Shown in pieces: positions 8,036 to 36,059 of a stretch of DNA of 64,000 nt (the stretch's first letter is position 1; each line of letters starts with the position of its first letter). Made by a program: the position numbers and the translations under genes. Origin of the DNA: Eledone cirrhosa (taxonomy: Eukaryota); NCBI GenBank assembly GCA_964016885.1, contig OZ024743.1:184512001-184576000 (forward strand). The letters are read 5' to 3'. The notes beneath the pieces are model-generated. The model was given only the letters and a program-made list of their open reading frames with translations, had not been told where the DNA came from and did no database searches.

Positions 8036-8176
8036 CTTCAAGAAAACAGAATATGTATAATTGAAGAGGTGTGATTAACCATTTTGTTACTATATTTCTA
8101 ATGAAAGACACTGCCTATGATTTTAAAAATCATCAAAAACATGGAGTGATTTAGTAATATAATTAATTTTCTCATT

Positions 8177-8333
8177 TGGCAGTATCGGAAGCATAGAGTT
8201 ACGGCCCTTTATGATCTGAGTTCAAATTCCGCCAAGGTTAACTTTGCCTTTCATCCTTACGGTGTCGAAAAAATAAAGTACCAGTAATGCACTGGAATAA
8301 TTGCTGGCCTTATGCCAAAAGTAGAAACAATTA
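8177..8333 (+). mobile_element. tRNA-derived SINE
   Basis: Same family as 4812-4978. Confidence 0.8.
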
Positions 8334-9099
8334 TTAAGCCAGTGTTATAAACATAAAGGTTCTTATTTAAAACTATGATGGAAGATTTTTAGAATATAAA
8401 CACTAAGATAAAGAGCTTTGTATTGTAGAACCAGGAGTGGTTTCAGTTGATTTTGTCTCAAAAGTTGGTAAACAATCAATACCTAACTTTTCTCTCAACC
8501 CATCTGTGCTTTGCTGTTCATGTACACTAACATTACACATCTAACAGAACATATGCTCGTTTCATTTCTTTCTAGCTTTTGCATATCCTCTACATTTAGA
8601 TCTCATGTCTCACCGCCATGCAATATTGCACTATGTAAGAGATTCCAATATTATTTACAAAATGTTTGATAACATATTTATACTGTACCGATTGTGTTGT
8701 TATTTCTGTTTACTTTTGACATACATATATATATATGTATATATATATATATGTACATTATGTAATGTATTGCAGTGAGATTATAATGAGGTTTCTATAT
8801 TAAATATCTGATTTTGAAAAGTCCCAGGAAGGGGTGAAACGTTCGTTCAGCATTTGATGTATTAATGTATTTGGTGTCTTTTTTTAATGAATAATTTGCT
8901 TCTAGTGTAATTGTTATTTTGGGCATAATAGGAGTGTGTATACAGACCTTTTTGGAAAATTCTTTCAGAAGGGTTGATACATAGCCTTTTGTTTTGCTTA
9001 TTATAATAAATTACTCTATTTTGAGCTGTGTTTAACCTCTCTACCTATGTTTTTAAATTTTTATATTGTTTTTGTGAAAAACGATGTATATTTATATAT

Positions 9100-9508
9100 T
9101 ACCCAATTACACCTCTCAAAGGCGAGGACACACGACCATGACCTCTGGCGTCACGCAGTAATACAGAAGACCCGACCCCCCACGGGTACAAGCCGAAGCT
9201 GAAGCATATAGACAATATGCCCCCACAACCTCCCACTGCAAAGTGGTCATGGAGGTGCCACGGTAAAAAAGCACCCAGCCCACACTGTAAAGGGGTCGTG
9301 TAGGTGCCACGGAAAAAAAGCACCCAGCACTCACTGTAAATGAGGTTGGTGTTAGGAAGGGCATCCAGCTGTAGAAATCAAGCCAAAATCAGTTCCCGTA
9401 TGAGCAAGACAAGGTCAGCCGACCAGACACTGCCCACAACAGGACGACCCGTCTAACCCATGCTAGCATGGAAGAACGGACGTAAAACGGTGATGATGAT
9501 GATTATGA
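9100..9508 (+). mobile_element. 5'-truncated RTE LINE 3' end
   Basis: Near-identical to 44043-44440; (GAT)n tail. Confidence 0.85.
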
Positions 9509-9593
9509 TGTATATATCCAGGGAGTGCAACATGAAGTTACTGTAGGACCCAGGTGAGCACTCAATGTTTAGAGCTAGACAGAGTGTAATATA

Positions 9594-9783
9594 ATAATTG
9601 TTTCTACTTTTGGCACAAGGCCAGCAATTACCCAGTACATTACTGGTACTTTATTTTATCGACCCCGTAAGGATGAAAGGCAAAGTGAACCTCAGCGGGA
9701 TTTGAACTCAGACCATAAAGGGACGTAACTATGCTGGAAAGCATGGCGTCCGACTCTCTACCGATACTGCCAATCCACCGCCC
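9594..9783 (-). mobile_element. tRNA-derived SINE
   Basis: Family match; flanking duplication tgtaatataataat. Confidence 0.85.
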
Positions 9784-10192
9784 TGTAATATAATAATACA
9801 AGGATGTAATATAATAATACAAGGACGAATGGTTACTCCTTCATTACATTTATTGGCATCACCAACCAATAAATGTAATGAAGGAGTAACCATTTGTCCT
9901 TGTATTATTATATATATATGTATATATATATCTACATACATACATTTATTTATTGATCTATATATGCTGTAAAGTGGTTGGTGTTAGAAAAGGCATTCAA
10001 CTGTAGAAAGCTTACAAAACAAGGGGTTAGGGGGATCCTTCAGTTTGTGTCAAAAGACACAACTTCTCTACACTCAATAACTGTATGTAAGCGGAATGCA
10101 GACCTTCTCAGCCTGTCTGGCAGCATGCCAATAACCCTATGTCAGTACTGACTTGGTTTATGTAGACCTGTCTAACCCTTGCTATATATTAT

Positions 10193-13100
10193 ATCATCAT
10201 CATCATTTTACGTCTGCTTTTCCCTGCTTGCAAGGGTGGGACGGGTCCTATTCAGCACAGCATCTCTCCACTTGTCACGGTTCTTTGTCATCTCCTCCGT
10301 GAGCTTCAGCAATCTGAGGTCTGCTCTCACCACCTCCACCCATGTTTTTCGTGGTCTTCCTCTACTGCATCTTCCTTCAACTGGCATTTCTTGGCACTTC
10401 TTTACCCAGCGGTCATCCTCCATGCACATCACATGTCCATACCATCGCATTCTTCTCTCTTGCACCCTACAACTTATCCCTCTTAAACAGTTTCTCTCTC
10501 AACACATCCATGCTCAGTCGTTCACGTACATTGACATTGCACATCCAAAGGAGCATGCTTGCTTCATTTCTCTCCAGCCGTTGCATATCTTCCGCACCTC
10601 ACCCAGGCATCATATAACCGGCCTTTCATATGCAGGGAGAAACCCTTCTTTGTCAGCAGAGGAAGCAGCTCCCTAAACTTCTTCCAACCCGTCCTTATTC
10701 TAGATACTATGGCCTCGGAACACCCTCCTCCCATGCTAATCTGATCACCTAGGTACCGGAAGCTATCAACCACTTCTATAGAACCTACCTGCATTTGAAA
10801 AATGTGTCTATCAATGCGACTTCTACTGTCAAATTTCCATGTACATCTACTGCATATGTATTTTTCCCTACCTATTAGTTTGCCTGCTATCCCACTACAT
10901 CTCTTGTGTACCCAGGATCTGCATTGTGTACATTTTATAGAATTTATGCCAGTTCATTTTCTGCATATCAAACATGGCCATTTCCCTGATGGAATCAGAG
11001 TTTTGTCCTCTTTTCTACTCAACACTTTTGTCTAAGCTAGGTTCACTCTCAGTCTTCTTAATTCCAACTGCTGTTTCCATAGCCAGAATTTATTCTCCAG
11101 CTCCTCTACTGATTCTGCTATAAGAACCAGATCATCAGCATAGAGAAGTTCCCATGGGCAGCCAGTCTTAAACTCCTCTGTTATGGCTTGGAGGACTATA
11201 ATGAACAAGAGCAGGCTGCGAACCGAACCCTAATGTACTCCTACTTGTATCTGGAATTCCTCACTAAACACCATTCCTACCCTCACTTTACTGACAGCAC
11301 CTCTGTACAAAGCTGGCACTGTCCTCACAAACCATTCCTCAACACCTAGTTTCCTTAGGGACCACTAGATGACAGATCGGAGTACCCTATCAAAGGCTTT
11401 CTCTAGGTCAACAAAGGCTAAGTATAGTGGCTTATTCTTCTCTAAGAACCTATCTTGTGGTTGTCTCACTAAGAAGAGAGCATCTGCTGTACTTTTCCCA
11501 GGCACAAAACCAAACTGCATCTCATCTAGTTTGACCCTTTCTCTAATTAGTTGCGCTAATATCCTTTCTGCCACTTTCATAACCTGATCCATCAGATTTA
11601 TACCCCTATAATTGCTCCTCTTCAGACCATCCCCTTTACCTTTGTAGCAATTTATGAGAATACTGCTGCACCAGTCTTTGGGTATGACACCACCATATAT
11701 AGCCTGATTGATGATGCGTGCTACCAGTTTAGTGCCTACGCCTCCTATCCCCGACTGTCCAGCGGCCTTACCATTTTTCATTTCCTTAATTGCCTCTTGG
11801 ACCCTATATTCGTCAATCTCAATAGCTGGTCCCTCTGTCAGATCTACTGGGGGTAATTTCTCTCTCCCTCATTCGTTCTCCACATTCATCAGTCTCTCTC
11901 ATAATGACATTTCCAGGCCTCCTTTTTCTGATCATTCGTGACACTAAGTACACCGGCATCATTCCGGACACACTTATCTCCAACATCATCCTGATTTGCA
12001 CTGACATACTGCCTTGCAATGCGGAACACCGCACATCTCTGATCTTCCCATCACAGAACATTAGCAAACCTCCTACTCTCAGCTTCCCTGCGCGCTAAGT
12101 ACACCTGACGTCTAGCTTCTCTCTTAGCGGTTGTGTATCCTCCTCTACTCCCACCATTTTTCCAAGCGTTCCATGTTAGTCTTTTGCCCTATCTACCGTG
12201 CTGTTCCACCACCAGGTCACTCTCTGTCTGGTTGGAGCTCTGCAGTAAGTTGTCACGTAAGAAATTCCAGTTATCATTTATATTAAACGACTCTAAACCG
12301 CCTTCTTTTTCGTCATGCACATCTCGAAGGGCTTTCCTAAATTTATATTTTAGTGAAAGGTCTTTTAGCTTCCAGATCTTTCTTTTCCACACCTTCTTGT
12401 ATGTCTCATTCTGTCTCTTGCTTACTGAGATGTCACTAACGACTAACCTATGCTGTGGGGTATATTCTTCCCCGGGGTATGCCTTAGTATTTGACACCAT
12501 CTGTCTGTCTCGCTGCCTAACTAGCAAGAAGTCAATCTGGCTTAAGTTATAGCCTGATTTGTAGGTTATTAGGTGGTTGCTAGGTTTCTGGAAGTTAGTG
12601 TTGCAAATGGTTAGTGCACTTACATCACAAAATTCAAGAAGCCTCACTCCTTCTTCATTTCTTGAGCCGTAACCGTGCCCACCATGTACCCCAGTGTATC
12701 CATCCTGGCCTGGAGTTGTCCAACATGACCATTGAAGTCCCCTGCTAGCATAACAATGTCTCCGTCCTCTGTCATTGCGACTGTTTGGAAAAGTTGCTCG
12801 TAAAAGCAGTCTTTCTCTTCTTTACCTAGGCCTGCCTAGGGAGCATAGGCAGAGATAATTGTTAGTAGTCTCTTGCCTACAACTAATCAAAGCTTAATTA
12901 TTCTATTATTAACTCTAACTACCTCTATTGTCTTATTGATCCACCTCCCAGCCAGTAAAATGCCTACCCCACCTAACCCATCATCATTACCCACCCAGAA
13001 AAGCATATAACTACGATGTTTGCCAGTGATTAGTCTTGCAGAGGCACCTCTCTATCTCACCTCTTGCACGCAGCACACATCCACATGCCTTCTCTCCAGC

Positions 13101-13310
13101 ATCTCCACTATCTCACCTGATCTATCTGTTAGAGTGCCAACATTAAGTGGGGCAACTCTGAGATGCGACGTCTTCATATTCTTGTTCTTGTTCCTGTTGT
13201 GCGATTGCTTGATGACGGTCAGGGGGTTCTCGCACATGGCTGCACCAGCCACCCCACTACCGTGCGCAGCCCTAACATGGTTAGTGTTATTGCTGTTTAA
13301 CATTTATTTT
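10193..13310 (-). mobile_element. RTE-clade LINE, near full length, disrupted (Gemin2 intron 4)
   Basis: APE motifs (LNVGTL, CCVQEVR, GDFNGHVG, QIDF); RT motifs (NYRGINL, AFVDLEKAFD, LLYADD, FRYLG); RLRWYGHV-type C-terminus; (GAT)n tail; stops and frameshifts. Confidence 0.93.
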
Positions 13311-14285
13311 TCCTTGCTTGCATTGGTTAGATGGGTTGCCCACATCATGAGACAAGTCTGGCCAATTGCTCTCTGTTAGAGTGAACACCTTAAATCTATT
13401 TTCTGGCTGAGCCAGCCAATAGCTCTATATGCAAATGAGGCTAATCAGCCCATGTACATAGGTGTCAAAACTATGTTTTTGCCTATATTAAGTTCCAGCA
13501 GAGAGCAGGGTAAGGGAGCACTGTCTCGATAATGACAAAAGTCAGAAACAATGTTTGTTGTCAACAGTTACCCTTTGCTTCTTCTGGAATCCACTAGATA
13601 GCGCTACGTTATCAGTTTCCAAATTTATAGCTGAAGGCTTTCAAAATGTTTATTCATAAACGTACCATATATCGCTAGATATACAAAATACTCATACATA
13701 TTATCATCATCACCGTTTTATGTCCATTCTTCCATGCTAGCATGGGTTAGACAAGTTGTCCTGCTGTGGGCAATACCAGGTCAGGTGACAATGTCTTGCT
13801 CATACAGAACTGATTTTAGCTTGATTTCTACAGCTGGATGCCCTTCCTAAACACCAATATATATCATAAAAATTAGCTCTATCTATATTGGTGTAGAAGT
13901 GCCAGTAGATTTCATCTACAAAGTGTTAAGATATAAGGTATAAATAAAATAGTTTTAACAAGGAATAACCATGCCTTGTGTAAGCTTTATTTCATTAACC
14001 CTTTTGTTACTATATTTCTAATGGAAGACACTGCCTATGAATTTAAATAATTTTTAATGAAGAATTTGGAGGGATTTAAATATAACTTTCATATTATTAA
14101 ACTGCCCTTTGGAAAATAACTTAAAGGTCCTTACATAAAATCATGGTGAAAGGTTTTAGATAAATATAAACACTTTAAAGTAAACAGTTTTGTATCAGAG
14201 AAGCAGGGTGGTTCTAGTTGGTTAAGTAACAAATGTATTAAAATAAAAATATATTTTTAAAATGTCAATATTCTTCAAAACTCAC

Positions 14286-14345
14286 AAGTTTTCGCCTTGT
14301 TTTCTTTATTTCTGATTCATGTGTGCTTCTATATTCAATGAGTTT
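14286..14345 (-). CDS. GEMIN2: Gemin2 coding exon 4
   Basis: cttttag acceptor; KLIEYRSTHESEIKKTRRKL; gtgag donor; 60 nt, in frame with neighbours; low sequence conservation. Confidence 0.85.
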
Positions 14346-14830
14346 CTAAAAGCGAAGAAAAGAAGGTAACAAAGTTTTTAAATGAAAATTTCCAAAGTAA
14401 AAAAAGTAGATTTAACTCTAACATCCTGTACCCCATGAAACCACATTAGCAAACATTCTTGAAAAGTACAAAACAACACTATGACTGCATCACATTATAA
14501 ATTAAAGTTTTTACTCCAATACTGGAAATGTTTACAATAATCTCTCCACTAGTAAATATACTATAAACATTTGAATTAACAAACCTGTTTTATAGATATA
14601 TTCTGCTAAATCATGTCCTTATTAAGAGTTAATAAGGACATGACAAGTCTGTTATCACATCCATAACAAACTGTAGCCTCTGAAATGTTTCTTGTGTAGT
14701 AGAATTTGTCGAAAATAACTGTTGCATAAAACTTTCCAGTGATGTACTGATATATATTTGATATATAAATATATCCCTATATTGTTAAATTATTTATTGC
14801 TTAACATAACATAAATATAACACAACTTAC

Positions 14831-14920
14831 TTGTCTGATTTTAGCAAAATCTGCAACCTGTTTTCTCTTCCAACTAGCTGAGGGTTCTAAACCTACAGGT
14901 GCCGGGAGACAGCAATCTTT
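14831..14920 (-). CDS. GEMIN2: Gemin2 coding exon 3
   Basis: taccag acceptor; KDCCLPAPVGLEPSASWKRKQVADFAKIRQ resembles human '[27 protein letters not shown]'; gtaag donor; 90 nt. Confidence 0.95.
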
Positions 14921-15879
14921 CTGGTAATTTTAAGAACATAAGAATAAAGAAATGGGTTCTAATCATGCCAAGGAATAAACGTACATCAACATCATTTTAC
15001 ATCCATTTTCCATGCTGGCATGGATTGGACAGGCTGTCAGGATCCAAAACCATACAAGTTGGGGAACCACATCTTGCTCATACATTCTATATTTGGCATG
15101 GTTTCTATAACTGGATGCTCTTCCTAATGCTAACAATTATAATTTTTCAGATTATCAACCTGGAGAAACTAAGAGGCCCCTGGAAGGGTTTAATGAGAGG
15201 AAAAATATTGAGGTCAGAAATGGATGGACATATAAGTGAGAAATAAAATCGTATATCACTATGGAATTAATTCTGAATGCAAAAACATACTGGTGCATCT
15301 TTTACTTCCCACTCCTTTTATACCAAAGTTGTACTGGTATATTTTAATTTCGTTTGTGAAGCACAAGTCCAGATAAAGAAAATAAAGGAAATTTAATCAA
15401 AATATCTCATATGTTTTATTTTAAACCATTTTTATTGCAAAAATGAACATGCAACCCAGGACAAGGACAAGTAAAATACAAATAATAATAATAATAATAA
15501 TTGTTTCTACTTTTGGCACAAGGCCAGCAATTACTCAGTACATTACTGGTACTTTATTTTATCGACCCCGTAAGGATGAAAGGCAAAGTAATAATAATAA
15601 TAATAAATAGCACTGGCACACAATGCGCTAAATCTCAATAATTAATAGAGACCCACTGTGAAAATTTACTAAAACAAAGGAGTAAACAATACTTGTTGAT
15701 AATCCTATCAGTAAATTTAGTACTGACACAAGCTCAATATGGCTGTCTTTACTGAAAGATAAATATATATAATCTAAAATTGTAATATTGATTGTAAATG
15801 ATTTAGTGGCCTAATGGATGACAGAGTTATTACCCTTAGTTTAGAAGTAAAGGTTCATAAATCCAGTCTAGTTCTATAA

Positions 15880-17350
15880 TAATGAAATTATTGTGTACAG
15901 TGCTCAGGTGCACTATAACTCATCAAAGGTGCATGTATAGTACATAGAATAATGTACAAATGTTAGGAAAGTGAACAGTGTATGAGTCATGATATATATG
16001 TGTGCATGTATATGGAGCGGGGATATCAGGTGTAGTGTTGGCGAATTTCAGGAAACATGGAGGTTTTAAAGGATGCAGTGTCTCGACAGCTAACAACTGA
16101 TGCAGGTAGTTCGTTCCATGCTACAGCAACTCTGAGCATGAAAAAATGTTTCCGAAAGTCATGGGAGCTGTGCTGTTTTATGACTTTGTAGGCATGTCCA
16201 CGTGTGTTAGACACATGGAAATCAAAAAGGTGCTCAGGGCTGTTGTTGGCAAGATGGTTAATAATTTTGTGGGTGTTTACCAAGTCAGTTGCCAGACGTC
16301 AGAGCTTCAATGTATCCATGCCCAGGGAAGCAAGGCGTTCAGAGTATGGTAGATGTCTGATGGAGGGTATTCGCTCGGTTGCACGTCTCTGAACAGTTTC
16401 CAGGAGGTCAATGTTCTGAGTAAGATAGGGGTTCCAGACTGGTGATGCAAATTCTAAGTGTGGCCGCACCATAGCTATATACACCTTTAAATAGATAACT
16501 GGAGAGCGGCTGGCAAAGGTCTTGCTAAGTGATGCTAAGACACCTTCATCCTTCTAGACAATTTTAGAAATGTGCTTTGTCCAATGCAAATCGCTGCTGA
16601 CAGTAATGCCCAGGTCACATTTACAAGAAGACTTCTTGATATTAGTGTTTGGAGGGAGTATGTGGACGCTGGGTTTTTCTTCCCAAAATGCTTGGTGGTA
16701 CACTTGTCCACAACCAGCTTCAGTTGCTAGTCCGTGATCTATTGCTGCATTGTGTCCAGGTCTGATTGCAGGAAAGATCTATAGTGTTCAGGATCTGTCC
16801 TTTTTACCTCAAGGTACAGCTTGATGTCATCTGCATATTTCAGTACTGTGGCATTCTTTAATTTGGCATCTATATCATTAATATATGCAACAAACAAAAG
16901 GGGACCAAGAACAGATCCCTGTGGTACACTAGATGACATCTCATACGGTGAGGAATGCTGTCCTAGAACTGTGACTACCTCTCTTCAACTGAGAATGAAG
17001 GACTTCAACCAGTTAAAAAGATCATCCTTCACACCCATTGCAGAGAGTTTTGCCATAAGACTTTTGTGTGGCGCAGAATTAAAAGCTTTAGCAAAGTCAA
17101 GGTAAACAACATCCACCCATGAGCTGCCATCAGTGATCCGGGTGATGTCTTCAAGAAACTTGATAAGTTGATCACAGAAGCTGGAGTTAGGGATAAATCC
17201 AAATTGCGAGGGCTGGATAAGACTGTGAGAATTCCAGAAGTTCCAAAGTGTTTCTCTAACACAGGATTCCATCAGTTTGGCAATACAGCTCGGAAGACTG
17301 ACTGGATAATAGTTGAAAGGCGACATGTGGTCACCCTTTTTGAACACATT
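15880..17350 (-). mobile_element. CR1-clade LINE 3' fragment (RT)
   Basis: YLDFAKAFN, VPQGSVLGPLLF, KYADDIK, VRPHLEFASPVWNPY, TRGHAYK, VAWNELP. Confidence 0.9.
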
Positions 17351-17926
17351 GTCTTATTCTTAACCATATCAGATGATCAAACCAATTAAAATGTTGTGTA
17401 GGATTAAATAACTGATTGAATGTTTTGAAAAGGGATGATGATAATGATGACAACAAAATCTAGTGTTTATGTCATTATCATCATTTAACATCTGCTTTCC
17501 CTGCTATCAAAGGTTGATGGGTCGTCACAGACCAATTCCAGCCAATACAACACTAAAATACAATTCTGTTATTTTTAGCTTTATATAAAAATACATAAGA
17601 TTAAAATATTCTATTGAGTAAATATTGCTGTGTGTATGCAATTAAGGATAAGTATACTGTATCCCTACATGTTATAGGGCACAACTAAATGGGTTAGTGC
17701 TAGGAAGGGCATTCAGCAGTAAAACATTACCTCAAAAAGTAACCAACAACATATATGAAGTTTACTATGGAGCCCACAAGGCTACCATCTACTTTAGCAA
17801 GGAACACTGAGGCATAAAACATTTGTTGTTGCTGTATAGAGTAGTCGACGAGTAAGCTATGTAGTAATGTTTGTCAAAATAAAAAATATGGTGCACAAAA
17901 ACTTTAAAGAAATTCAAGATACATAC

Positions 17927-18017
17927 TGCTAAAATGTGGACATTCTGTTTTCTATTCATAGCTTCAGTATTTAGTGATTTAGCAACGACTACTGATGGAC
18001 AACATAATGCTTCATCC
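17927..18017 (-). CDS. GEMIN2: Gemin2 coding exon 2
   Basis: ttctttttag acceptor; (R)DEALCCPSVVVAKSLNTEAMNRKQNVHILA resembles human 'EAAQCPDVVVA'; gtatgt donor; 91 nt completes the phase-2 codon. Confidence 0.93.
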
Positions 18018-18249
18018 CTAAAAAGAAAACAATCAATTATATATTAACTTTTTCATGAACTTATTTTCTTATGAAAGACACTGCCTATGATTTTTGAATC
18101 ATTTTGAAAATAATAAAGAATTTGAATGGATTTAGTAATATAATTAACTTTCTCATTATTAAGCGTATGTTTAGTACATAACAAAAATTCTTACATTAAA
18201 TTATGATGAAGGGCTTATATATATATATATATATATATATTTCTTGTAA

Positions 18250-19172
18250 ATAGACGATAAAACAGAACCCAGATTCCCTCAGGGAAATGGCCTTGCTCAG
18301 TATGTAGGAAAGGTGTAGGTAGGAACTTCATCCTCTGCCCCAAATGCAAACAATGGGTACACAAGTGATGTAGTGGGATCCCAGAAGTTTAACTAAGAAT
18401 GTAGGCTTCATATGTAGCAGCTGTGTTGGGACAGCAAGCAGCAAACGACCACAGGAAACAAGCACCACCAAACTCTGGGCGGGCTCTGTAGAAACAGTAG
18501 ACAGCTTCTGCTACCTAGGTGACCAAATTAGCAGCAGAGGTGGGTGTTCGGAAAGTACAATAACTAGGGTAAGAACGGGATGGAAGAAGTTCAGGGAGCT
18601 ACTGCTACTGCTAGCTGCAAAAGCTTTTCCCTCAAAATGAAAGGCAGACTGTATGATGCGTGTATATGAACAACAATGTGACATGGTAGTGAAACCTGGG
18701 CATTGTCTGTAAAAGACTTGCACAGATTAGAAAGAAACGAAGCTTGCATGCTCCGAGGGATGTGTAATAGTAATATACGTAAACGGCAAAGTATAAACGA
18801 ATTGAGAGAGAGACTGAGCATAAGAGGAATCAAATGCTGTGTGCAGGAGAAGAGGTTACGTTGGTATGGACATGTAATGCGAATGAAGGATGACAGCTGC
18901 ATAAAAAGGTGCAGAGCGTCTAGAAGTTGATGGAAGCTGTGGAGTGGGGAGACCCCAGAAGACCTGGGATGAGGTGATAAAGGCCGACCGTACCCAATTG
19001 CACCTCTCAAGGGCAATCACACACGACCGTGTCCTCTGGCGTCACACAGTAATACAGAAGACCCGAACCCCCCACAGGGACAAGCTGAAGCTGAAGCATA
19101 TAGACAATATGCCTCCACACCCTCCCACTGCAAAGTGGTCGTGGCAGAGCCACGGCAAAATGATGATGATGA
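18250..19172 (+). mobile_element. 5'-truncated RTE LINE
   Basis: Near-identical to 43300-44180; PHD-like Cys cluster, RLRWYGHV, (GAT)n tail. Confidence 0.9.
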
Positions 19173-20126
19173 TATATATATATATATATATAACAATTAT
19201 AAATGTGAAGAGAAAATAGACAAAATATACCTAATTTACCAAAATACACCTAAAGTCCCAACTGTACAGTTTCACCAACTGGTATGCAGCCAAAGTGCAC
19301 TAGGGTTGTGTGGCTATTGGCTTTTCAAGAGACCCCTCAAATGAAAGGACTAATTCTTGAACTGACCGTCACAAGTGAAACATTCTTGGGAGGGAGAATT
19401 ATCATGTGGTATAATGGCCACAGAAAGGAGGTAAATGCTGGAGGTTTAGCAAGTAATATATTTGCTAGAAGCAGCCAGTACCCTCCTATTTCACTTGACC
19501 ATAAAAGAGTAGGGACAAAATAATAAGATACACACACATATAGTTAAAACAAACAGCACAAATAGAAAGATGAAAGAAAACAAAGAAAAGAAAATAATGG
19601 GATAATAATATACCTCAAGCTGTGGTGTCTGTCCACTATCCCATTATTTTCTTTTCTTTCGTCCTTCTATTTGTGCTGTTTGTTTTATCACACATACATC
19701 ATACCAGCAGAAAGATTTTCTGTTGCACGATCCAGCTTTTTAAAGTGGTACTCTCAATTAAATCATGCAAAACTATTTTGCTGGTTTGAGAGCTGATGAG
19801 GATGAAGATGTCTCTGTGTGTGTGTGTGTAAACTTGTCTTGTGCCATCACCTTTCTTTATTTCCTTCTTCCAGTCACTTCTGTGTGCCAGTGCACTTCTC
19901 CTTGTCCCCCTCCTCTTTCAATATTTTTTATATTTCATCTGCCTGTCACCCATCTTGTGGATTGTCTCTCTGTTGACCAAAGGTCTCTGTCTTCTGGGAA
20001 CTTTTTGTCCATCGTTGTCTTTGACAGCATTTAGCTGTTTTAATGGCTGTTCTAGTGATGAGTTTTCTCATTTTTAAATGTATTCAATCAAATACACTCT
20101 TCTTTAGACTCGATCAGAAACAACAT

Positions 20127-20157
<31 letters not shown>

Positions 20158-21203
20158 AGTAGAAGTGGTTACACAACAGTTAGTTCACCATACCGAGAAC
20201 AATTGTTTCACCTTAGTGGATCCTCAGCTCGTAATGGATATGGTTATACGGAACAGGAAGGACAACTGTACGAACGCGCATGCGAAGAAACGATCACTTC
20301 ACATAGGCAATACTAAATTGCGTGCGAGGTGTAAGGGAGATAACTGCAAAAGTCCGAAAGTTTCTAGTTGATAAGAAAATTAGGATGTTGTAATTCAATC
20401 CGGAGCTTTGTAGTTATGTAAGAGGTGTTTCCAGACGTGTGGACGTGTGAAGAATTCATTTCTCGTGTTTAGGCAATCACTATTGCGTAATCTCTTTAGA
20501 ATATTTATTCGTTCATCAATACATAGTCCACACGACGGATTGCCCCTTGCGTATGGCTTGGACTTAGTGATGGCTTTCCATTGAATGGAGTAGTCTATAC
20601 TTGAGTGCTTGAGGAACCATACGTGGCTCGCGAGTTTCGTGGATGAACGTCTGTCCGGGTACCTAAAGGTCGACTGGTGGTTCAGGAAGCGTTCCTTAAA
20701 TCGGCCCTCCGCCATGCCCACATAGGATTTGACCTCCTGTGGTTGATTTAAACTACAGCGGGTGTGTTGCATTGCTGTTGAAGGGGACAAGCTTTGGGCT
20801 TACGGCAAGAGCACCCTGGTGGGGTGTTGCTCTTAGGGCTGTTGGTGATGTGGGCCTTCATGTTCTTAGCGCAAGAGTATCTTAGTTTTACTTTGTGTCG
20901 GTTAAAGATGGAGCGGTATTTATGACCTATGGGAAAGTGTCTACCTAAGGCTAGAAATTTTTTGCCTAAATTGGTTTTAACGTTGAGTGAGAAGGGAGGA
21001 GAGAACCAGATAGTTTGTCTATTGTTACGCTTTCTTTTTTTATTGCTGTTGTTGTTAGTGGGAGAGTAAGTGATAGGTTGCGAGAAGCCGCTGTTAGCTA
21101 ATGCCGTGTTATAGTAGGATGCCACCCTGTCAAAGATAGCCTTATTAGAGGAGAGGTTTGAGATTCTAGTACTGATATTATTTACGAATCTTCTAAAAAC
21201 AGT
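20158..21203 (-). mobile_element. Penelope-like element fragment (RT C-terminus + GIY-YIG endonuclease)
   Basis: IWFSPPFS..VKTNLGKKFL, CSCRKPKACPL...C, SYVGMAEGRFKERFLNH, CGLCIDE; frameshifted; flanked by (TA)n on both sides. Confidence 0.9.
20188..20243 (-). ncRNA. Minimal type I hammerhead ribozyme in the Penelope terminal region
   Basis: Minus strand reads CCATA-tccatta-CGAG CTGAGGA tCCactaaGGt GAAA C-AATT-G TT CTCG-g-TATGG: CUGANGA and GAAA cores, stem I CGAG/CTCG plus CCATA/TATGG, palindromic stem III ACAATTGT. Confidence 0.7.
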
Positions 21204-21764
21204 ATATATATATATATATATATATAAACCGTTTTGCATTGTAGAATCATGGGTAGTCTCAGGCGCTTAGGTAACAAAACAGTAAAGTTAAAGAGGGAGC
21301 ACCAGAAAGAAAAAAAATTATGCAACTAGATACCAGAAGAAGCAAGCGGAATATGATACTACATCAAAACTAATATAAAGGCAGAGTAAGGAGACTATAT
21401 CAGATGACAACCTTCAAGTTTTAACTTCATTTTATTTTGTGTCAGTTTCATGCAAAGACAATCAGCTCATGAATGTGTTTAATATTTTGAAATTCTGTCC
21501 TCTTAATTTTTACCAAAAGGCTTCCATTCATGTCACTATGTAAAAAAAAAATTTAAAAAAAAAAAAATTATTATGGGTGAACATCGATTCTCATCAACTC
21601 TATTAGGTAAGGGGTCTATTCATTTCGTATGTTCTGTATGTATGCATACACACGCACGAGTCGATGAGGAATCCTTGACACGAATATAAATGCAGCGAAT
21701 CCAGTGAATCGAACGAGATTTTTTCATTTTCTTCAAAGGGGGCCTATTGTCAATGATACCCCTA

Positions 21765-22025
21765 ATAATTGTTTCTACTTTAGGCACAAGGCCAGCAATT
21801 ACCCAGTGCATTACTGGTACTTTATTTTATCGACCCCGTAAGGATGAAAGGCAAAGTCAACCTCGGCGGGATTTGTCAATGATACTCCTAATAATGGTTC
21901 TAATTTAGGCACAAGGCCAACAATTTTAGAGGAGGGGAAACTCAATTAAATCGACCCCGTAAGGATGGAAAGCAAAGCTAACTTCGGCGGGATTTGAACT
22001 CAGAATGTAAAGGGCCGTAACTCTA
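21765..22025 (-). mobile_element. Two tandem SINE fragments
   Basis: Family match; duplication tgtcaatgatac..ctaataat around the first copy. Confidence 0.75.
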
Positions 22026-22547
22026 TTATTATCTTATCCGATGCTGGGTGGTTATGATGCAGCTCTACCCAGTGCCGCCCGACCCACTTCCCGTTCCTAT
22101 TCTCCTCACCCATACTATTACCCAACTCATATGTCACGCACTAACCTCTGTCAGATTCTCCCTTTTCAAAACGTCAATCCTCGGGGATTCACCCCTACCC
22201 TAATCCAGTCAGTTTGTTGTTCTTTTTCCTTTTCTTTTCTTCTGCAGTAAATCGACTTGTAGCTGATCGACATCAACTTCAATCATTCTTTACATGTGCA
22301 CATATATAACTCATTCTCACAAACACGAAAACAGAGGAAGCTTACGCTAGAGAAAAGCCTTCAGTTTTTAACTCGTATTTCATCTTGTGTCACTGTTTCA
22401 TGCAATCATAGAGAAATAAAGAAAATACTAGACATAAACAGGGAAAGAGAAATAATCCATCTTGAGAAACTTAATAAATAGTCGTCATAAAACATACATA
22501 AATAAAACATACATAACTAAAATCATGTAGTGTGTCTTATTGCATAC

Positions 22548-22654
22548 CTAACTCTCCTCAAGTATTCATTCCCAGTCATGGGAGGAATAGTAATATCATA
22601 GTTATTATCTAAAGTTGTATCCACAGGTATTGCAGGTGTAAACACTTCTTCCAT
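22548..22654 (-). CDS. GEMIN2: Gemin2 (SIP1) coding exon 1
   Basis: ATG at 22654; MEEVFTPAIPVDTTLDNNYDITIPPMTGNEYLRRV(R); matches the Gemin2 N-terminal 'PP.T..EYLRRV' motif; donor AG|gtatgc, phase 2. Confidence 0.93.
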
Positions 22655-27432: not shown

Positions 27433-27800
27433 TACTCTCAGATCTCAAATGATGGGGGAAAAGCGGGGGAGTGGAAAATCGGCAATTTTTCTCGGTTGTC
27501 TCCGTTGATTTAAAAAAAAAACAGAATTAGTCGTTTAGTTTACATATTGAGACCCCCAACCCATCCTATCTATTGTATAACGTATGGGACTGCTCGTAAT
27601 GTACATTTTTGTCATGTATAATGTTTTTTGATGTATAAAGAAAATCAATTGTCGCAGGAATCCTACTACTTAAAATTAAATTTCGACGGATGTAGAGCAG
27701 CAAAATTTAATAAACGGGGGAGATGAAGAGCGGGGAGTTGGAAAAAAACATCTGAAAAATAAATAGGGAGGGGGGGGGGGTTATTTGAGACTCGAAAGTA
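27433..27800. mobile_element. TA-flanked MITE, copy 1 (upstream of mael)
   Basis: Imperfect TIRs tactctcagatctcaaatga / ttatttgagactcgaaagta; internal sequence aligns with 32474-32766. Confidence 0.7.
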
Positions 27801-27943
27801 AATTTGTTTTGGTGGGGAATTCCAAGTGTTTTTTATAGCTTACTCTAAACGGTGCAGGGACAGATAACTCTTACATACTGTTATATAAAACTTAGTTTGC
27901 AGTCGTATCTAGTTAGAACGTTTGTAACTCTACACCGTTAAAC

Positions 27944-29596
27944 ATGCCTCCAAATAAGAAAATACAACATAACGCTTTTTATTATTATATGAAAGATTTA
28001 ATGGAAGAGATGAAACTTAATGGCCATAATTTCCCTAATGGTTTAGCAGATGTTGTGACTATTGCTGGCCCCAAATGGAAGCTGCTGACGGCCAACGAAA
28101 AATACCCTTATGAAAAAATGTCTCGTGAAGTTAGAGAAAATTCACGTAAAAAGAATAACAACACCAACAATAAGAAAAAGGATTCGCGTATGGATTGTAC
28201 AGGGCAGTTGATTTCTAACCATTGTGAACCCCTCGACGAAATTGCTAAACAATACGCTGAACAAGAACGAGATGTTACCTCAAAATGGCCGCATAATACT
28301 GATATATTATATGAAAAGTTTTACTTACTGAATTTCCAGATACTGTGTAAGACTTCAGACGACGAATGCTTACCAGTTGAAGTTTCTATGTTGGAATACA
28401 ATATGAAGGAAGGTGTTAGTAAAGAGATGCACCAATTTATTAACGCGGGTCCAATTCCCGTTGGTTACAGATATGAGGCGCAATTCCACAGTGACAACAC
28501 TCACCAAATTCCCATAGAAAATTTTGAAATGGCCACATCTGATTATACTCAACTGTGGAAAAATTTGCTTAAATTTTCTCGTAATAAACAATTTTATTGT
28601 TTGTCAAAAGATTTCAGAGAGGTTGAAAGCTGTTTGAATTGGATTCGAGTACGAAGTGAAAATGCTAGATCGGAATATATTCAACTTTATGCACTTGAGA
28701 AGCTCGTCATGGATTTGTTTAAACATAACGGCTTTCCAGTAGCGAAATATCAAATTCTTGACATGCTGACAACCACTGCATTCGATTATGAACCCAATAC
28801 TCGTTGTCCTTGGCACGAACAGGCTAGTCTTATTCATTGTAGCTTAGCTATTATTCGAAGATATGCTTACGCCATGTCAGATTCTCTCGTCAATGTTTAT
28901 GAATTCACACTCACATCTCAGCACCTCCCCGTGAAAGATAGTAAAAGTAAAGGCGTATCGTTAAACCCTCCCCATTTCGGCAATAGAAAAAATAACTCTC
29001 GCTCAGCTGCCCAAAGAAACAAACGTTGGTCTGAAAACACGACACAACCCTCTTCTAACGTTCAACCGAATTTTCATTCTTCAAATGACGAATTGGAAGC
29101 TCTCCGCAAGCCACTTACCAGCGCTAACGTTGCTTTTGCGTCGGCAAAACACAGTTATTTGGATAGTAATGTAGAATTTCCACTGGGAACGAAATCTGAA
29201 AACGAATCTGATTGTTGTAGTCATGACGCTAATGTATGTGATAGTTTAAGCGAGTGTGATAGTGAAATAAATCGTATATGTGAAGAAAACGAAGTTCTGC
29301 AGAATCCATTCCACTTTGAACCCGTTTTCCCAAATCTATCGGGCACAAGTAGTAAGTTACCAGCATCGACCACTGCTCCTCGGACGTGGTTAAGCTCAAC
29401 ACCAAAACCTTCACAGATATCAGAAACTGAGTTTCCATCTTTAACCAGCAGTATTTGTTCAGGAACTCGAGGTGCAACTCCTTCCTACCGACAACAAGTG
29501 GCTATGCAAAGAAATGTACCTAGCAGGCCTTGTTTTGCCGCGATGGTAGGTCGAGGACGTGGACGGGGCATAATTGCAAATGCTTGTCCGAAATAG
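27944..29596 (+). CDS. MAEL: Maelstrom (piRNA pathway), single-exon CDS, 550 aa
   Basis: N-terminal HMG box (NAFYYYM...AGPKWKLLTANEKYPYEKM); MAEL domain motifs LPVEVS, PIPVGYRYEAQFHSDNTHQIP, RCPWHE...HCSL (E-C-H-C Zn ligands); Ser/Pro-rich tail ending GRGRGRG; aaacATG start context. Confidence 0.95.
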   Translation: MPPNKKIQHNAFYYYMKDLMEEMKLNGHNFPNGLADVVTIAGPKWKLLTANEKYPYEKMSREVRENSRKKNNNTNNKKKDSRMDCTGQLISNHCEPLDEIAKQYAEQERDVTSKWPHNTDILYEKFYLLNFQILCKTSDDECLPVEVSMLEYNMKEGVSKEMHQFINAGPIPVGYRYEAQFHSDNTHQIPIENFEMATSDYTQLWKNLLKFSRNKQFYCLSKDFREVESCLNWIRVRSENARSEYIQLYALEKLVMDLFKHNGFPVAKYQILDMLTTTAFDYEPNTRCPWHEQASLIHCSLAIIRRYAYAMSDSLVNVYEFTLTSQHLPVKDSKSKGVSLNPPHFGNRKNNSRSAAQRNKRWSENTTQPSSNVQPNFHSSNDELEALRKPLTSANVAFASAKHSYLDSNVEFPLGTKSENESDCCSHDANVCDSLSECDSEINRICEENEVLQNPFHFEPVFPNLSGTSSKLPASTTAPRTWLSSTPKPSQISETEFPSLTSSICSGTRGATPSYRQQVAMQRNVPSRPCFAAMVGRGRGRGIIANACPK

Positions 29597-30069
29597 TTTT
29601 TTCACATACTTCAAACATATTGACATACGTACATTTACTTACACATCGACATACATAAAAAATTATTTTTCCAAACATAAATTCTTGCCTATAATCTATT
29701 AAATCTGCAAACTAAATCTTAGCTAACTTTCTGTGAGTTACGAACTCTTCTGATCATTGTTTTAACACTCCTCGTGGCATGCTGAATTAAGATAATGTAT
29801 CTCAAAAGTAAATAACCACTCTTTACATACCGTCAGAACTTCTATTCTTAGGACGTTTTTACAATTTGTTGAAATTATTCGTAAAATATATATATATATA
29901 TATATATATAATGTTTGTGCAAAAGTTGACTGTATTTTCCATATTGCTATTTCCAAACATTCAGATTTGTTTACCTACAAAATTGCTATTTCGAAACAGT
30001 TCATCATCAAAGTTTTTGCAAAATTATTTAATGTACCTTTAATTTATTTTTAATAATCATAAGATAGTA

Positions 30070-30325
30070 TGGGTATCATAGATAATAGATTTTGTTTAAA
30101 GAAAATGAAAATATCTCGTCCGATTCACCGGATTTATTTTGTAAGCTCCGCTCTCTCTCTCACACATGCGTGCACGCAAGCCGATGGCAGAATCCTAACG
30201 AAACTTAAATCTAATTCTATCCCTAACCCGTATATACGCAATGGATCCAGTGAATCGAACGAGATGTTTTTTATAGTTTTACTTTATACTTAAAGATTTT
30301 TTTTCCTTGAATAATGGCATCCAGT
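30070..30325. repeat. Small inverted-repeat element; a related copy lies inverted at about 21570-21762
   Basis: atctcgtccgattcaccggat vs atccagtgaatcgaacgagat; the same motif occurs at 21697-21720. Confidence 0.5.
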
Positions 30326-31168
30326 GTTTGATTTTGTAATTATCTTTTCGGCGCTCCTTCGTTAATACGTCGTATTTCAAATAGAAACAAATGTTTGTTT
30401 CAATTTTGAAATCCGGTTTAGTAACAAAGAAGCGTCAACTCTTCAATTAATAAAATGCTGCCCTCTGATTATTCATCCAAATGATGTGGAATAAAAGCAA
30501 ACATATGTAGATATTTGTCCGATTTACCGGATTCGTTTCGCAAGTTCCTCTCATATATATATAGTGTATGTGTGGAGAGAGGGATGGACTCCTGGGTTTT
30601 AACGCCCAAGATGCGGTGTATATCTCGACGTGCCCCTACAATTCTGTGAGGAGTTCAAAACCCATGGATATATATATACATGAGCCAACGAAGGAACCCT
30701 AAACTGTTTATACGCGATGAATCCGGAAAAGCAAGTTTCTATTTCACGTTGCTCCTGTTCATTCAGTGGGTAAAAGTGAGTTGTACCTATAATTCATAGG
30801 GTCAGCCTTGTCACACCGTGTCGATGTGATGCTTTTGTGTTGCATCAGCTAAACTCTGGTTTAACACATTGATGACACATCCAATACGGCGCACGTATTT
30901 GCCATAGGAATTGTATCGGACTGTATTTCATTGTACATCGAAAATCGATAAAATAGGTTTAGATATAAATCGATTACTCAGTTCTGTCATGACATATTAG
31001 ATCTTTATATGTTTTATGTTTACAAACTTTATCATGTGACTTTAACAACTCATTGGTGTTTTTCTGCTCTCCTAAACTTCTCATTGCTAGAAGCAGTTTC
31101 TATTTGGTAGTATTGGTAGAGTATCGGATATGTTTAAGGCATATAGTTACGTTCTGAGTTCACATCCC

Positions 31169-31873
31169 GGCGATATCCAATTTTAGTGGACTAAATGCTG
31201 CTTACGTGCTGTAGTTGCTGTTTACTTCAATGTATGAGGCTATTCCAACAAATTTACATTCCCTTTTTTTAGCCGTTAAAAGAAATATAGATTTATTTAT
31301 TGTTTTTTTGTTTTTTTTTTTGCGATTTATTTGCCACTAGAGCATTAGGCGGGGGAAGTTTTTACAAAAATCAAGTACAAACATTTAACGAGTGATTAAA
31401 AAGGAATATAAAAAATTAAGTCCTCAATAGAGAGGCAGCCTTTTGGGGTCACACACACCCCCGTAGAAATTGTGCGACCTTTCTGCCAGGGAGCACAGAG
31501 AGAGGGGGGTGCTCCCTTCTTCTCTTACCTGTACAAGCCGATATAGAGAGATGGGCCATTATTGCTACTTTCACCCATCTTTCATGGAATTGGCTGGGAC
31601 TGAGTGCCTTTCTCTCCACCTTGATCCTTCTTTCGGAGTGGTATCGGAAGAAGAGGACCATTTGTTGGCCGGCGACATATCCCCACAGATCGGCAAAAAA
31701 AACAAACAAAAACGTGGCAAATAAATCGCAAAAAAAAAAAACAATAAATAAATCTATATTTCTTTTAACGGCTAAAAAAAAGGGAATGTAAATTTGTTGG
31801 AATAGCCTCATACATTGAAGTAAGCAACTACAGCACGTAAGCAGCATTTAGTCCACTAAAATTGGATATCGCC
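31169..31873. mobile_element. Non-autonomous DNA transposon with about 160-170 bp TIRs and an 8-bp TSD, inserted in a SINE
   Basis: TIRs 31169-31337 and 31714-31873 (GGCGATATCC.../...GGATATCGCC); TSD CACATCCC at 31161-31168 and 31874-31881; SINE B box on the left, SINE body on the right. Confidence 0.9.
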
Positions 31874-32473
31874 CACATCCCTCCTAAGTTAGCTTTACCT
31901 TTCATTTTTACGGGGTCGATAAAGTACCAGTAACGCACTTGAGTCGATTTAATCGACTCCCTCCCTCCCCCAAATTGTTGGCGTGTCTAAATCAGAAACC
32001 ATTATTATTTATCCCGCCGAGGTTAACTTTGCCTTTCATCCTTACGGGGTCGATAAAATAAAGTACCAGTAATGAACTGGGTAATTGCTGGCCTTGTGCC
32101 AAAAGTAGAAACGATTATTATTTTTAAAATTTATCTTGTCTTAAATTGGTTTGATGTGATCGAAATAATTTTATTTGGTAGTTTATTCCAGGAGTTAAAA
32201 AGTACTTGTTTACTGTTTTGTTTCTAAAAGATCATGTGGTTCTCTCTTGATTTGTTTACACTTTAGTAAAAAAAAAATTGAAAGCTGACGAAATTATCCG
32301 ATCATGAAACAATTTTATGTTGATTCAAAATTTCATATTCAATTGTGTGTATGTATATGTGTATATATATATATATACACACATACAATCAAGAAAAGAG
32401 AAAAGGAAGGTGTTGAGGTGATTAAAATAAGTTAATATATGGGGAGGGAGGAACTACACCTGTGGTTGGACAG

Positions 32474-32766
32474 TACAGGTCCTAAATAATGGGTGGGGTT
32501 TGGAAAATCGGTAATTTTTTTCGGTTGTCTCGTTGACTTTTTAAAAACCAGAATTAGTCGTTAAGTTTACATATTGGGACCCTAACCCATCCTATTTATT
32601 TTATAACATGGGATTTTTTATGTTCTTTTTTATCATGTACAATGTTTTTTAATGTATAAAGAAAATTGTAGCAGGAATGCTACCACTGAAAAGAAAATTT
32701 CACTGGTGATAGATTAGCTAAACTTAATAAGCAGGGGCGGGGACGATTATTCGAGACCCAAGAGTA
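32474..32766. mobile_element. TA-flanked MITE, copy 2 (downstream of mael)
   Basis: Shares ggaaaatcgg..cagaattagtcgtt.agtttacatattg.gaccc.aacccatcctat with copy 1 in the same orientation; ends attattcgagacccaagagta. Confidence 0.7.
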
Positions 32767-35700
32767 CAACCTGCAGACAATGGCATTGTCATGGAGGACA
32801 GCCAGCTATATCTGCTGCATCGACCATTCCACTTCAAGTAGCTCCTTCCTCAGGCAAGTGACTTTCCTTCTGATTTGGTGAAGTAAAATGGTAGTTGAGG
32901 GATCAAAGATATTAAATGCTTTAAGATCATTGAGTTTAGTGTATCACTTTTACTTTTGTCAATCAGCTGCTAGTAACATTGCATGGTGTTTCTTTGGCAT
33001 AAATTTTACTTTTCTCTTTCTTGGAATTATTATTTAACACCATGTCACCTGACTGCTAAGCAAAATATAAGCTGTAGACAAAACTAAAAGTGAAATGCTA
33101 AACTTGGTGGTGAGTTCATTGCCTCTCTTTCTCATTTCTTCTAATGAGGTCAACCAGTTATATTTGTTTGTGTTATAATCTTGTTTGTTAATGTTGTATT
33201 CATAATGCTGGTGAATATGAAGCTATTCTCGAATTAAGTTCCTATATTGATTTCTAATTTAAACACAAGACCAACAAAGTTTCGAGGAAGAGCAATATTG
33301 ATTAATCAACCCCAGTACTTGACTAGTATTTATTTTATTGACTCCAAAAGAATAATAGGAAAAGTTGACCCCAGCAGGATTTGAACTCAGAACAAATACC
33401 ATAATGGTATTTTATCGATGCTCTGCAAATTCTGCCAATCCACAACACTAAGAGTCCCTATATTGGAAACTAACATTCTTTAATTACAAGGATGCAATTT
33501 TGTGCATATTAGTCACCCATTTGTCTCCATTTACTAAAAAGTCATTGTTTTCAATATACCTTCATATGTGAAGGTTGGATGTTATGCTCTCCATCCCAGT
33601 GGGTCAATGCTATCTTCAAATGTAACTCTAGAAAATATTAACTAAGAAAGATGACAAAAGTCTGCTAACCAAGCAGAGCTGGGAAGTGATGAGAGAAATG
33701 TTAGAAGGGAAACAGCTAGATTATATGCCTAAACCATCCTTTTTTACAGGCATGCTGACTTGAGAGAAATCGACATTGGTAATATCAGATAGACTTTTGA
33801 AGATTATTTCAGCAAAGTTTTCTAATTTAGCTGATGAAAAGAGATATAAATCAATTACAGTATACTTAAGTATTCCTTTTTAATATAATGTTTGCTTGAT
33901 GTGGTTCAATTTATTGAGGCACCCTAGCATAATTGAAAACAGCAAATTTGCTTTTAAGGTTATGCTTGTTATTAACACTTTTATTACCATATTTCTAATA
34001 AAATACATCCTATGATTTTCAAATCATTTTGAAAATAAAGATTTTGAAAGGATTTAGTAATATAGCTAACTTTCTAATTATTTATCTAGTGTTTGGAGCA
34101 TAGACTCTATCACAAAATTATGGAATCCTCAGTGTTTTTACGTCCACTTTTCCATGCTGGATGGGATATTTTGAGACTGTTTTACAGCCCAATGATGCCA
34201 ACCGTTTTAATCACCTCTTACAACATGCTGGGATATGGTGTATCTAATCTAAAAACTGGGATACATGCAAAAAGTGTTTTGGGATGATCTCGAATTACTG
34301 AAGCGCATAGGTGATGATGAAGGAATGCGATAAGTTGAGAAATGTATTGAAAAAGACCTGTCCAACCCTTGTAAGCATGGAAAAGCAGGTGTAAACTTAT
34401 GAAGATGATGGTAAAACACTCTAACAAAGTTTTTTCATAGGACCAGCAGTAGTTTAATATCGGTTCATTAGAACAGATACTAATATCAATTCAATAGAAA
34501 TATGGTAACAAAAGGTTTAATTATCTTAAGTGTTTTACTTTATGCTGAGAATCTCCCACCTTTACACAATGATTATTTACAATATGGAGTTATATACCAT
34601 GTGCGTGGTGTGATAAGAGATTAACTTTAAAGAGTAATTTACTCTAGATATATTGAGTGAAAAAAGCTTCAGTAATTGTCTTAGGACTCAATCTGTTAAT
34701 GGTAATGAGGGTTCGCCATTTTACAGTTAGTAATGGAAAGCTTTAGATTAGACTTGTCTAGCAAGCTATATTGTTTTGAATTAGCGACAAGTCAAATATC
34801 AACTGAATAACCAGGTAAATTTAGTACATTTAACTGGATTACCGATTACCACATATTTTGGTTGTCTAGCATAAATATTTATTTTCAATAAATAAATATT
34901 TATGCTAAAACCCATTGTATATTTGAACATTTTAAGGGACATATAACTACCCATTTTTAATTTGAAGCCTTTGCTGTGAAAGTGAAGTGTAAACATGTTC
35001 AACTCTTTCTCCATTTACAGAAAAAGGGATTATTCTGTTGCAATTAAAATATTATTGTCCTGATCAGATAACTACATCTATGATTCTGTGGATGGAGTAA
35101 TATTGCTATAACGATACTATATATGTCATAGAAAATACCTATAATGATCAGTCTAATTTGCATATTGGTGATGTAATTTCAATCTTTATGGAAATACACA
35201 AATTTTCTATTACTGTTGTCAATATGGTAGTAAAATAACTGACATAGATTGCTGCCATATTAAATGCTTTATAGTTTTTAGTTTTGATTTATTCTGATTT
35301 CAATTCCACATAGGAGGATATATCAACTCAATTATATTTCTCTCTTCCTTATTAACCATCTTGATACCCAACAGCCTTTGCTTTTACAACATAAAACTGT
35401 TCATTTTAAGATGTTTAGAATTATCAAAAAACTTTTGTGTTAAGTTTGTAAGAAAGTTAATTATAGTACTAAATCCATCCAACTTATTATTTTCAAAATT
35501 ATTCCCAAATCATAAGCATTACCTTTTATTAGAAATATGTTTATGAAAGGGTTAATCATTTCCATTAAATAACTAAACAAATAGTATGTTCTTTGAAAAC
35601 AAATCTAACTAAAGATACTTTGACACTTAAAGCTTTTCATTTCAGATATACAAATTTATATATTAGTATATTCATGTATTGTTGGTAATACTTCTATCAC

Positions 35701-36059
35701 CACACAAACCAATCACTTTAAATTGATTTAACTGTTTAGTTTTCCCTTTATGCCAGTGGGTACATAAAGCAACTCATCTGTACTTCATAAATGAAATGCA
35801 ATGAGTTTTGTATTTTCTTTCTATATTTCTTTTCTCTTATTCCTTTGTTTTTATTTACTTTTTAAATAAAAAAGTATTTTGCAATATTTTCAGTTTTGAA
35901 TTTATATTTTCAAAAATATGTTTTGTTACAGCTCTACAAGGGTGCATCAGTTTTTTTAGGACATTTGCATGAATTTAGATACAAATTGATACAAATATCA
36001 TAATACATTAATGATATCTATTCAATGAATCCTGTTTGCTTCAATATGGGATCTTACTA

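What the first reader, a model, noticed from the sequence alone, without database searches (positions are those of the whole stretch)
27944..29596. Maelstrom with an intron-free 1.65-kb CDS in an intron-rich neighbourhood: candidate functional retrogene
Seen: an open 550-codon frame with intact HMG box and MAEL E-C-H-C Zn ligands, while neighbouring Gemin2 has 7 introns over 20 kb. Known: vertebrate MAEL is multi-exonic, and Mael is a core piRNA and transposon-silencing factor. Inference: this copy arose by retroposition and either replaced the parental gene or is an extra paralog, meaning a TE-defence gene was itself moved by the LINE machinery that surrounds it. No clear poly(A) remnant or TSD is visible, so the event would be old.
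Basis: partly seen in the sequence, partly recalled or inferred. Interest (0 to 1): 0.72.

Follow-up and report, generated by a model that had tools for sequence, protein, structure and literature searches.

The report
Octopus transposon-defence gene lost all introns
The only intact copy found in this octopus-type genome of maelstrom, a gene animals use to silence jumping genes, has no introns in its coding part although relatives in other marine invertebrates have many, so it is likely an old reverse-transcribed mRNA copy that replaced the original gene, a known kind of event that appears to be common in this genome.

Summary
Observation confirmed. Window 27944-29596 is an unbroken 550-codon Maelstrom gene (HMG box, MAEL domain, all EHHCHC residues), 82.5% identical to Argonauta over the first 360 aa. 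It is the only intact copy found in the genome. No exon-split parent turned up in four searches; the same search tool did find spliced Piwi/Ago genes. A run that splices neighbouring Gemin2 holds it unspliced with 0 differences. Eight unnamed outgroup loci show at least 7 coding-intron positions, none present here, so the state is derived. An unspliced ORF call on a 328-kb contig of a sister lineage suggests the loss is old, likely coleoid-wide. Relocation (orphan retrogene, about 60%) versus intron loss in place (about 28%) is unresolved because synteny could not be tested. LINE involvement is not shown. Instead, two young broken copies sit inside Gypsy-type LTR elements that captured mael sequence, likely from its mRNA. 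The event is not special to mael: single-copy THOC6, 60 kb away, is also intron-free, and this scan earlier noted USP34, CFAP46, SYCP1 and midasin as similar cases in this genome (unchecked notes). Verdict: a new member of a known kind.

The parts
27944..29596 (+). maelstrom coding sequence, 550 aa, one exon; only intact copy found in the genome
   Evidence: one X2 contig covers 27908-29877 with 0 differences
27950..28162 (+). HMG box (aa 3-73); spans the ancestral phase-0 intron site after K46 (base 28081), which is absent here
28352..28936 (+). MAEL domain (aa 137-331) with Zn ligands E146, C288, H291, C299
   Evidence: ligand roles from PMC4408791 passages
27882..27890 (+). TATA-like TATATAAAA about 25-33 bases before the inferred transcript start
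   Evidence: sequence; function inferred
27908..27943 (+). inferred short 5' UTR; likely no 5' UTR intron
   Evidence: X2 contig ends at 27908; the LTR-captured copies begin at 27915. Contigs cannot prove a start; an acceptor-like TTTGCAG ends at 27902
29597..35885 (+). possible 6.3-kb 3' UTR ending about 15 bases after AATAAA at 35865; may instead include a separate transcript
   Evidence: X2 pieces 29921-31184 and 31844-35885; AATAAA scan; strand and continuity not shown
2676..22654 (-). Gemin2, 8 exons inferred, head to head with mael (ATGs 5.3 kb apart); served as the spliced control
27466..27720 (+). copy of a dispersed repeat family in the mael promoter region
   Evidence: 3226 first-look candidates in the genome, 40 scored
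32495..32737 (+). second copy of the same repeat, 80% alike; not an LTR pair or target-site duplication

Best explanation
This is the working, transcribed, sole intact maelstrom gene found in this octopod genome, and it likely arose when a spliced mael mRNA was reverse-transcribed and reinserted at a new place, after which the intron-containing parent was likely lost. Shown: intact domains, transcription, no second intact copy, and absence of at least 7 intron positions found in outgroup loci. Inferred: the germline cDNA step, by an LTR or LINE reverse transcriptase that can no longer be identified; a date before the split from a sister cephalopod lineage, likely squids and cuttlefish; and use of its own TATA-type promoter 5 kb from Gemin2. 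The protein would act like other metazoan Maelstrom, as a Zn-stabilised RNA-binding factor of the piRNA pathway.
For: L014 alone shows 6 GT-AG introns within aa 1-308. A donor after K46 occurs in 7 of 8 loci (L017 does not cover it) and at least 7 distinct positions are seen in all. Every one is absent here, including the 5'-most. Copy number: the window protein, Pfam family, window DNA and a Lottia protein all return only this locus plus three young broken copies. The same tool found 4 Piwi/Ago loci exon by exon (18 matches). Expression: X2 joins Gemin2 exons and holds mael unspliced with none of the variants of the broken copies. Constraint: all 3 broken copies have a stop and pN/pS of 0.70, 0.78 and 0.98. 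In two overlaps (365 and 350 sites), 39 changes are private to a broken copy and only 3 lie on the window side or are shared by the copies. Age: P0004 is a whole 590-aa mael called on a 328-kb ENA contig and belongs to the sister clade (100/100 support). All 3 ENA-sourced members of the oyster cluster are single-exon fragments, so ENA calls look unspliced. Feasibility: mael sequence was captured by an LTR element in this lineage.
Against: Relocation is untested: no outgroup locus was long enough to show neighbours, and no poly(A), target-site duplication or element remnant marks the insertion. Loss of introns in place gives the same sequence. I could not fetch the DNA of P0004, and the taxa of P0003, P0004 and L013-L020 are not named. 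The intron state of the Argonauta gene was not seen. Expression rests on contigs of one run from one study, tissue unknown. Genome searches score only the best candidates, and the assembly may be incomplete.
Confidence: 0.6

Rival explanations
1. The gene never moved. Its introns were erased in place by recombination with reverse-transcribed mael cDNA, in one or several steps, in the coleoid stem.
For: No parental remnant, insertion scar or poly(A). mael cDNA evidently forms in this germline. Two other long-contig ENA calls, P0053 (whole) and P0052 (starting just after the K46 site), suggest repeated and possibly 3'-first intron loss in unrelated lineages.
Against: Even the first intron, 138 bases from the ATG, is gone, whereas loss in place usually spares 5' introns (recalled). 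Unchecked scan notes describe intron-free genes nested in other genes' introns in this genome, which would require relocation.
Confidence: 0.28
2. It is an extra retro-paralogue, and a spliced parent exists but is missing from the assembly or was missed by the searches.
For: Searches score only the best candidates; the SCP-1 family search found nothing at all, so the tool has blind spots.
Against: Four query types found no parent while spliced Piwi/Ago genes were found. The X2 contig equals this locus. Cephalopod-like proteins form one clade with no second paralogue group.
Confidence: 0.06
3. Single-exon mael is the ancestral molluscan state and nothing was lost.
For: P0052 and P0053 show long unspliced-looking mael frames in other lineages.
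Against: Shared intron positions occur in loci most similar to gastropod, bivalve and brachiopod proteins; oyster and Mya fragments end at the same sites.
Confidence: 0.02

Closest known systems
Orphan retrogenes (Ciomborowska et al., PMC3548309; abstract and section 14 read)
   Same: Single-exon functional gene covering the intron sites of the orthologues, parent untraceable, conserved.
   Different: Their second method removed pairs with conserved neighbours; that synteny test could not be run here.
Amphioxus SYCP1 retrogene replacement (PMC5803294; abstract and 12 passages seen)
   Same: Germline gene with a single coding exon, parent lost, beside another gene's promoter region.
   Different: SYCP1 shares a bidirectional promoter with CHIC. 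Here the Gemin2 and mael ATGs are 5.3 kb apart and mael has its own TATA-like box, so promoter borrowing is not indicated.
LTR-mediated retroposition (Tan et al. 2016, PMC5131818; 12 passages seen)
   Same: The C3 and C15 broken copies fit: partial mRNA inside an LTR element, microhomology at the switch point, more than one insertion site.
   Different: Applies to the young daughter copies, not demonstrably to the intact gene. The word 'mollus' occurs 0 times in that paper's main text.
Metazoan Maelstrom (Bombyx 5af0/9nhc, Drosophila 4ybg; PMC4408791 and PMC2628886, passages seen)
   Same: HMG box plus MAEL domain with ECHC/EHHCHC residues.
   Different: No protein-level novelty found apart from a long stem branch (1.12) and a 7-residue gap shared by the 4 cephalopod-like rows.

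Membership tests
Maelstrom | N-terminal HMG box followed by MAEL domain | tested here: met
   both above the Pfam cut-offs
Maelstrom | ECHC Zn ligands / EHHCHC motif | tested here: met
   E146, H163, H187, C288, H291, C299
Maelstrom | acts in germline piRNA silencing | not testable with these tools
   inferred from orthology only
orphan retrogene | coding sequence lacks the introns of its orthologues | tested here: met
   at least 7 positions absent
orphan retrogene | no intron-containing parent in the genome | tested here: met
   control; limited by candidate scoring and assembly completeness
orphan retrogene | transcribed and under constraint | tested here: met
   one run; no cross-species dN/dS because no orthologous DNA was held
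orphan retrogene | genomic position differs from that of the parental orthologue | not testable with these tools
   outgroup loci are only 1.4-5.1 kb long
LINE-made retrocopy | poly(A) tail and target-site duplication | tested here: inconclusive
   none seen; expected to erode at this age
LTR-mediated retrocopy (daughter copies on C3, C15) | host mRNA piece between discontinuous LTR-element parts with junction microhomology | tested here: met
   C3: two LTRs, gag-protease, mael 27915-29348, integrase tail; 5-base shared AGAAC at the 5' switch; flanks CTTAG/CTTAC
LTR-mediated retrocopy (the intact gene) | flanked by parts of an LTR element | tested here: inconclusive
   the flanking direct repeats belong to a dispersed family, 80% alike; no gag/pol frame within 5 kb

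The most novel reading that the evidence does not exclude
In the coleoid stem lineage a wave of retroposition, with LTR elements as the vehicle, replaced many single-copy core genes by intron-free copies at new sites. It included the piRNA factor mael, whose mRNA Gypsy elements were still capturing and spreading recently, once as an in-frame protease-Maelstrom junction. Retrogene replacement would then be an unrecognised part of cephalopod genome reorganisation.
Probability: 0.25. Interest if true: 0.68.

Novelty: new member of a known kind. Interest (0 to 1): 0.4.

Why it matters
On its own it is one more case of whole-gene intron loss or retrogene replacement, with no evidence of changed protein function. 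I did not find it in print in the paper searches (listings only). Its value is as a well-controlled data point. With THOC6 next door and other noted cases it suggests cephalopods replaced many core genes by RNA-derived copies, which can be counted genome-wide. The young chimeric copies indicate that Gypsy-type elements make retrocopies in a mollusc, here of a gene that silences them.

Tried and rejected
No RNA holder was listed on record; X2 was judged RNA only from its spliced Gemin2 contig. The variants seen over the coding sequence in X1, X3 and X4 largely coincide with those of the C3 broken copy, so they are not read as alleles or editing. The direct repeats on either side of the gene were considered as old LTRs and rejected. 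A shared bidirectional promoter with Gemin2 was considered; the 5.3-kb gap and a separate TATA-like box argue against it, and the CpG profile was uninformative. A search for short cephalopod exon fragments found none among 351 candidates: weak. The Atlas gave only Maelstrom clusters and no taxon for P0004. A check of the earlier SYCP1 note failed: nothing rang anywhere. Gemin2 exon 6 was not located. No sign of selection on the captured copies. PMC4793324 (6 passages) says nothing on mael exon structure. No structure or complex prediction was run, as it would not bear on the question. No supplements were read; Table S1 of PMC5803294 might list cephalopod gene structures.

Full report
Observation. 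The frame 27944-29596 (+) is open for 550 codons; shuffles reach at most 185 (300 shuffles). It has an HMG box (aa 3-73) and a MAEL domain (aa 137-331) above the Pfam cut-offs, matches solved Maelstrom chains and keeps E146, H163, H187, C288, H291 and C299. These are the motifs described in PMC4408791 and PMC2628886 (passages seen). The closest named protein is from Argonauta hians (71% overall; 82.5% over 360 aa), so the host is an octopod by inference. Gemin2 lies head to head on the minus strand, 22654 to 2676. Seven exons were placed and an eighth of about 70 nt is implied by a spliced contig.

Copy number. Four searches of the 3.0-Gb genome (window protein; PF13017; window DNA; Lottia protein) return this locus and three other places, on C3, C15 and C2. 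These are 96% identical, intron-free and broken. No exon-split copy appeared; the three further hits have E of 0.4 or more and lie in the low-complexity tail. As a control, PF02171 found 4 Piwi/Ago loci in 18 exon-sized pieces, so spliced genes are detectable and intron loss is not general in this pathway. Limits: only the best candidates are scored, and a search for SCP-1 found nothing at all.

Expression and constraint. No run is on record as RNA. Run X2 has a 926-nt contig that joins Gemin2 exons, so it is an RNA library. In X2 one contig covers 27908-29877 with 0 differences and none of the variants of the broken copies. Cover continues in pieces to 35885, about 15 bases after an AATAAA, which hints at a 6.3-kb 3' UTR. 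Contigs show neither strand, ends nor level; this is one sample of unknown tissue from the same study as the three DNA-like runs. The broken copies have pN/pS of 0.70 (34/12 changes in 454 codons), 0.78 (10/3 in 120) and 0.98 (11/3 in 116), with a stop each. Where two copies overlap, 39 changes are private to a copy and 3 are on the window side or shared by the copies.

Ancestral state. All match mael in short pieces. L014 has six GT-AG introns in aa 1-308. A donor after K46 is present in 7 of 8 loci, and shared sites near S91 and just after W115-P116 occur in five and six loci. At least 7 positions are seen in all. Oyster and Mya fragments end at matching sites. The loci are unnamed but closest to Lottia, Mya, Lingula and a bivalve-like protein. 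That human MAEL and THOC6 are multi-exon is recalled, not from a call.

Age. P0003 (Logan cluster of 9) and P0004 form the sister group of window plus Argonauta (100/100; 37 rows, first 420 aa); that they are squids or cuttlefish is my inference. P0004 is a full-length call on a 328-kb ENA contig. All 3 ENA members of the oyster cluster are single-exon fragments, so ENA calls appear unspliced and P0004 likely intron-free. The loss then predates that split (about 270 million years, recalled). I could not see the DNA. By the same logic P0053 (657-kb contigs) and P0052 (32 kb, starting just after the K46 site) suggest independent intron loss in unrelated lineages, which lowers the uniqueness of this case.

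Mechanism. Loss of all introns implies a cDNA step (about 90%). Whether the cDNA inserted elsewhere and the parent decayed (60%) or it overwrote the gene in place (28%) needs synteny, which I could not test. No poly(A) or target-site duplication is seen. The repeats on both sides of the gene belong to a dispersed family with 3226 first-look candidates. Nothing ties the event to LINEs. What is visible is later capture by an LTR element. On C3 a Gypsy-type element has both LTRs (16 differences in 295), 5-base flanks matching at 4 of 5, gag with zinc knuckles and a protease-like stretch (motif recognised by eye), then mael 27915-29348 in place of the RT-RNase H-integrase core, then the integrase tail. 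Five bases are shared at the 5' switch point. C15 has the same 5' junction at a different site, truncated, and there the protease-like frame runs into the mael start codon. This fits the template-switch model of PMC5131818 (passages). The capture starts 7 bases from where the X2 contig ends and about 25-33 bases after a TATA-like box, consistent with an mRNA 5' end. Both copies are dead and show no clear selection.

Context. A THOC6 orthologue 60 kb downstream is also one open frame of 355 aa and single-copy. Earlier notes of this scan list USP34, CFAP46, SYCP1 and midasin as similar cases in this genome and a ZFR-like case in another. These are unchecked AI notes, and my one attempt to check SYCP1 gave no result. 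Paper searches (listings only) showed no report of mael gene structure in cephalopods. The phenomenon itself is known (PMC3548309, abstract and section 14; PMC5803294, abstract and passages).

Verdict. A real, functional, derived intron-free maelstrom; probably an old orphan retrogene; a new member of a known kind; interest 0.4. The larger question is the genome-wide rate of such replacements in coleoids.

Noticed in passing
G000:C3:211281003-211289095 (-) (L031) and G000:C15:34762268-34764397 (+) (L007): Two Gypsy-type LTR elements carry captured mael sequence with the same 5' junction at different sites; in C15 the protease-like frame runs in frame into the mael start. Both are broken.
   Followed up: yes
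L031 about 1990-2180 and L007 4377-4540: Both chimeric copies have a SINE-like insertion at the same ATT-rich site of mael, but the two insertions differ by 12% against 5-7% for the rest, so they are probably independent insertions at a preferred target.
   Followed up: partly
G000:C2:99075104-99075454 (-) (L008): A 352-bp internal mael fragment with unrelated flanks, about 150-250 bases from a tRNA-like sequence (seen by eye); vehicle unknown.
   Followed up: partly
G000:C4:184599739-184600803 (+) (L036:3739-4803): Single-copy THOC6 orthologue with an intron-free 355-aa frame, 60 kb downstream of mael.
   Followed up: partly
window 29597-35885: RNA-run cover runs 6.3 kb past the stop to an AATAAA at 35865, across several repeat fragments: a long 3' UTR or a separate transcript.
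   Followed up: partly
window 62255-62480 (+): Exon-like frame resembling the start of an MS4A/CD20-type membrane protein (recalled resemblance); the 162-aa frame had no Pfam hit.
   Followed up: no
proteins P0052, P0053/P0189: Long mael frames called on 32-kb and 657-kb ENA contigs of unrelated lineages suggest repeated intron loss in this gene across animals.
   Followed up: partly
window 10176-12821, 39618-45871, 55033-57926: Several decayed LINE (endonuclease-RT) copies and one LTR-type element; ordinary for this genome.
   Followed up: no
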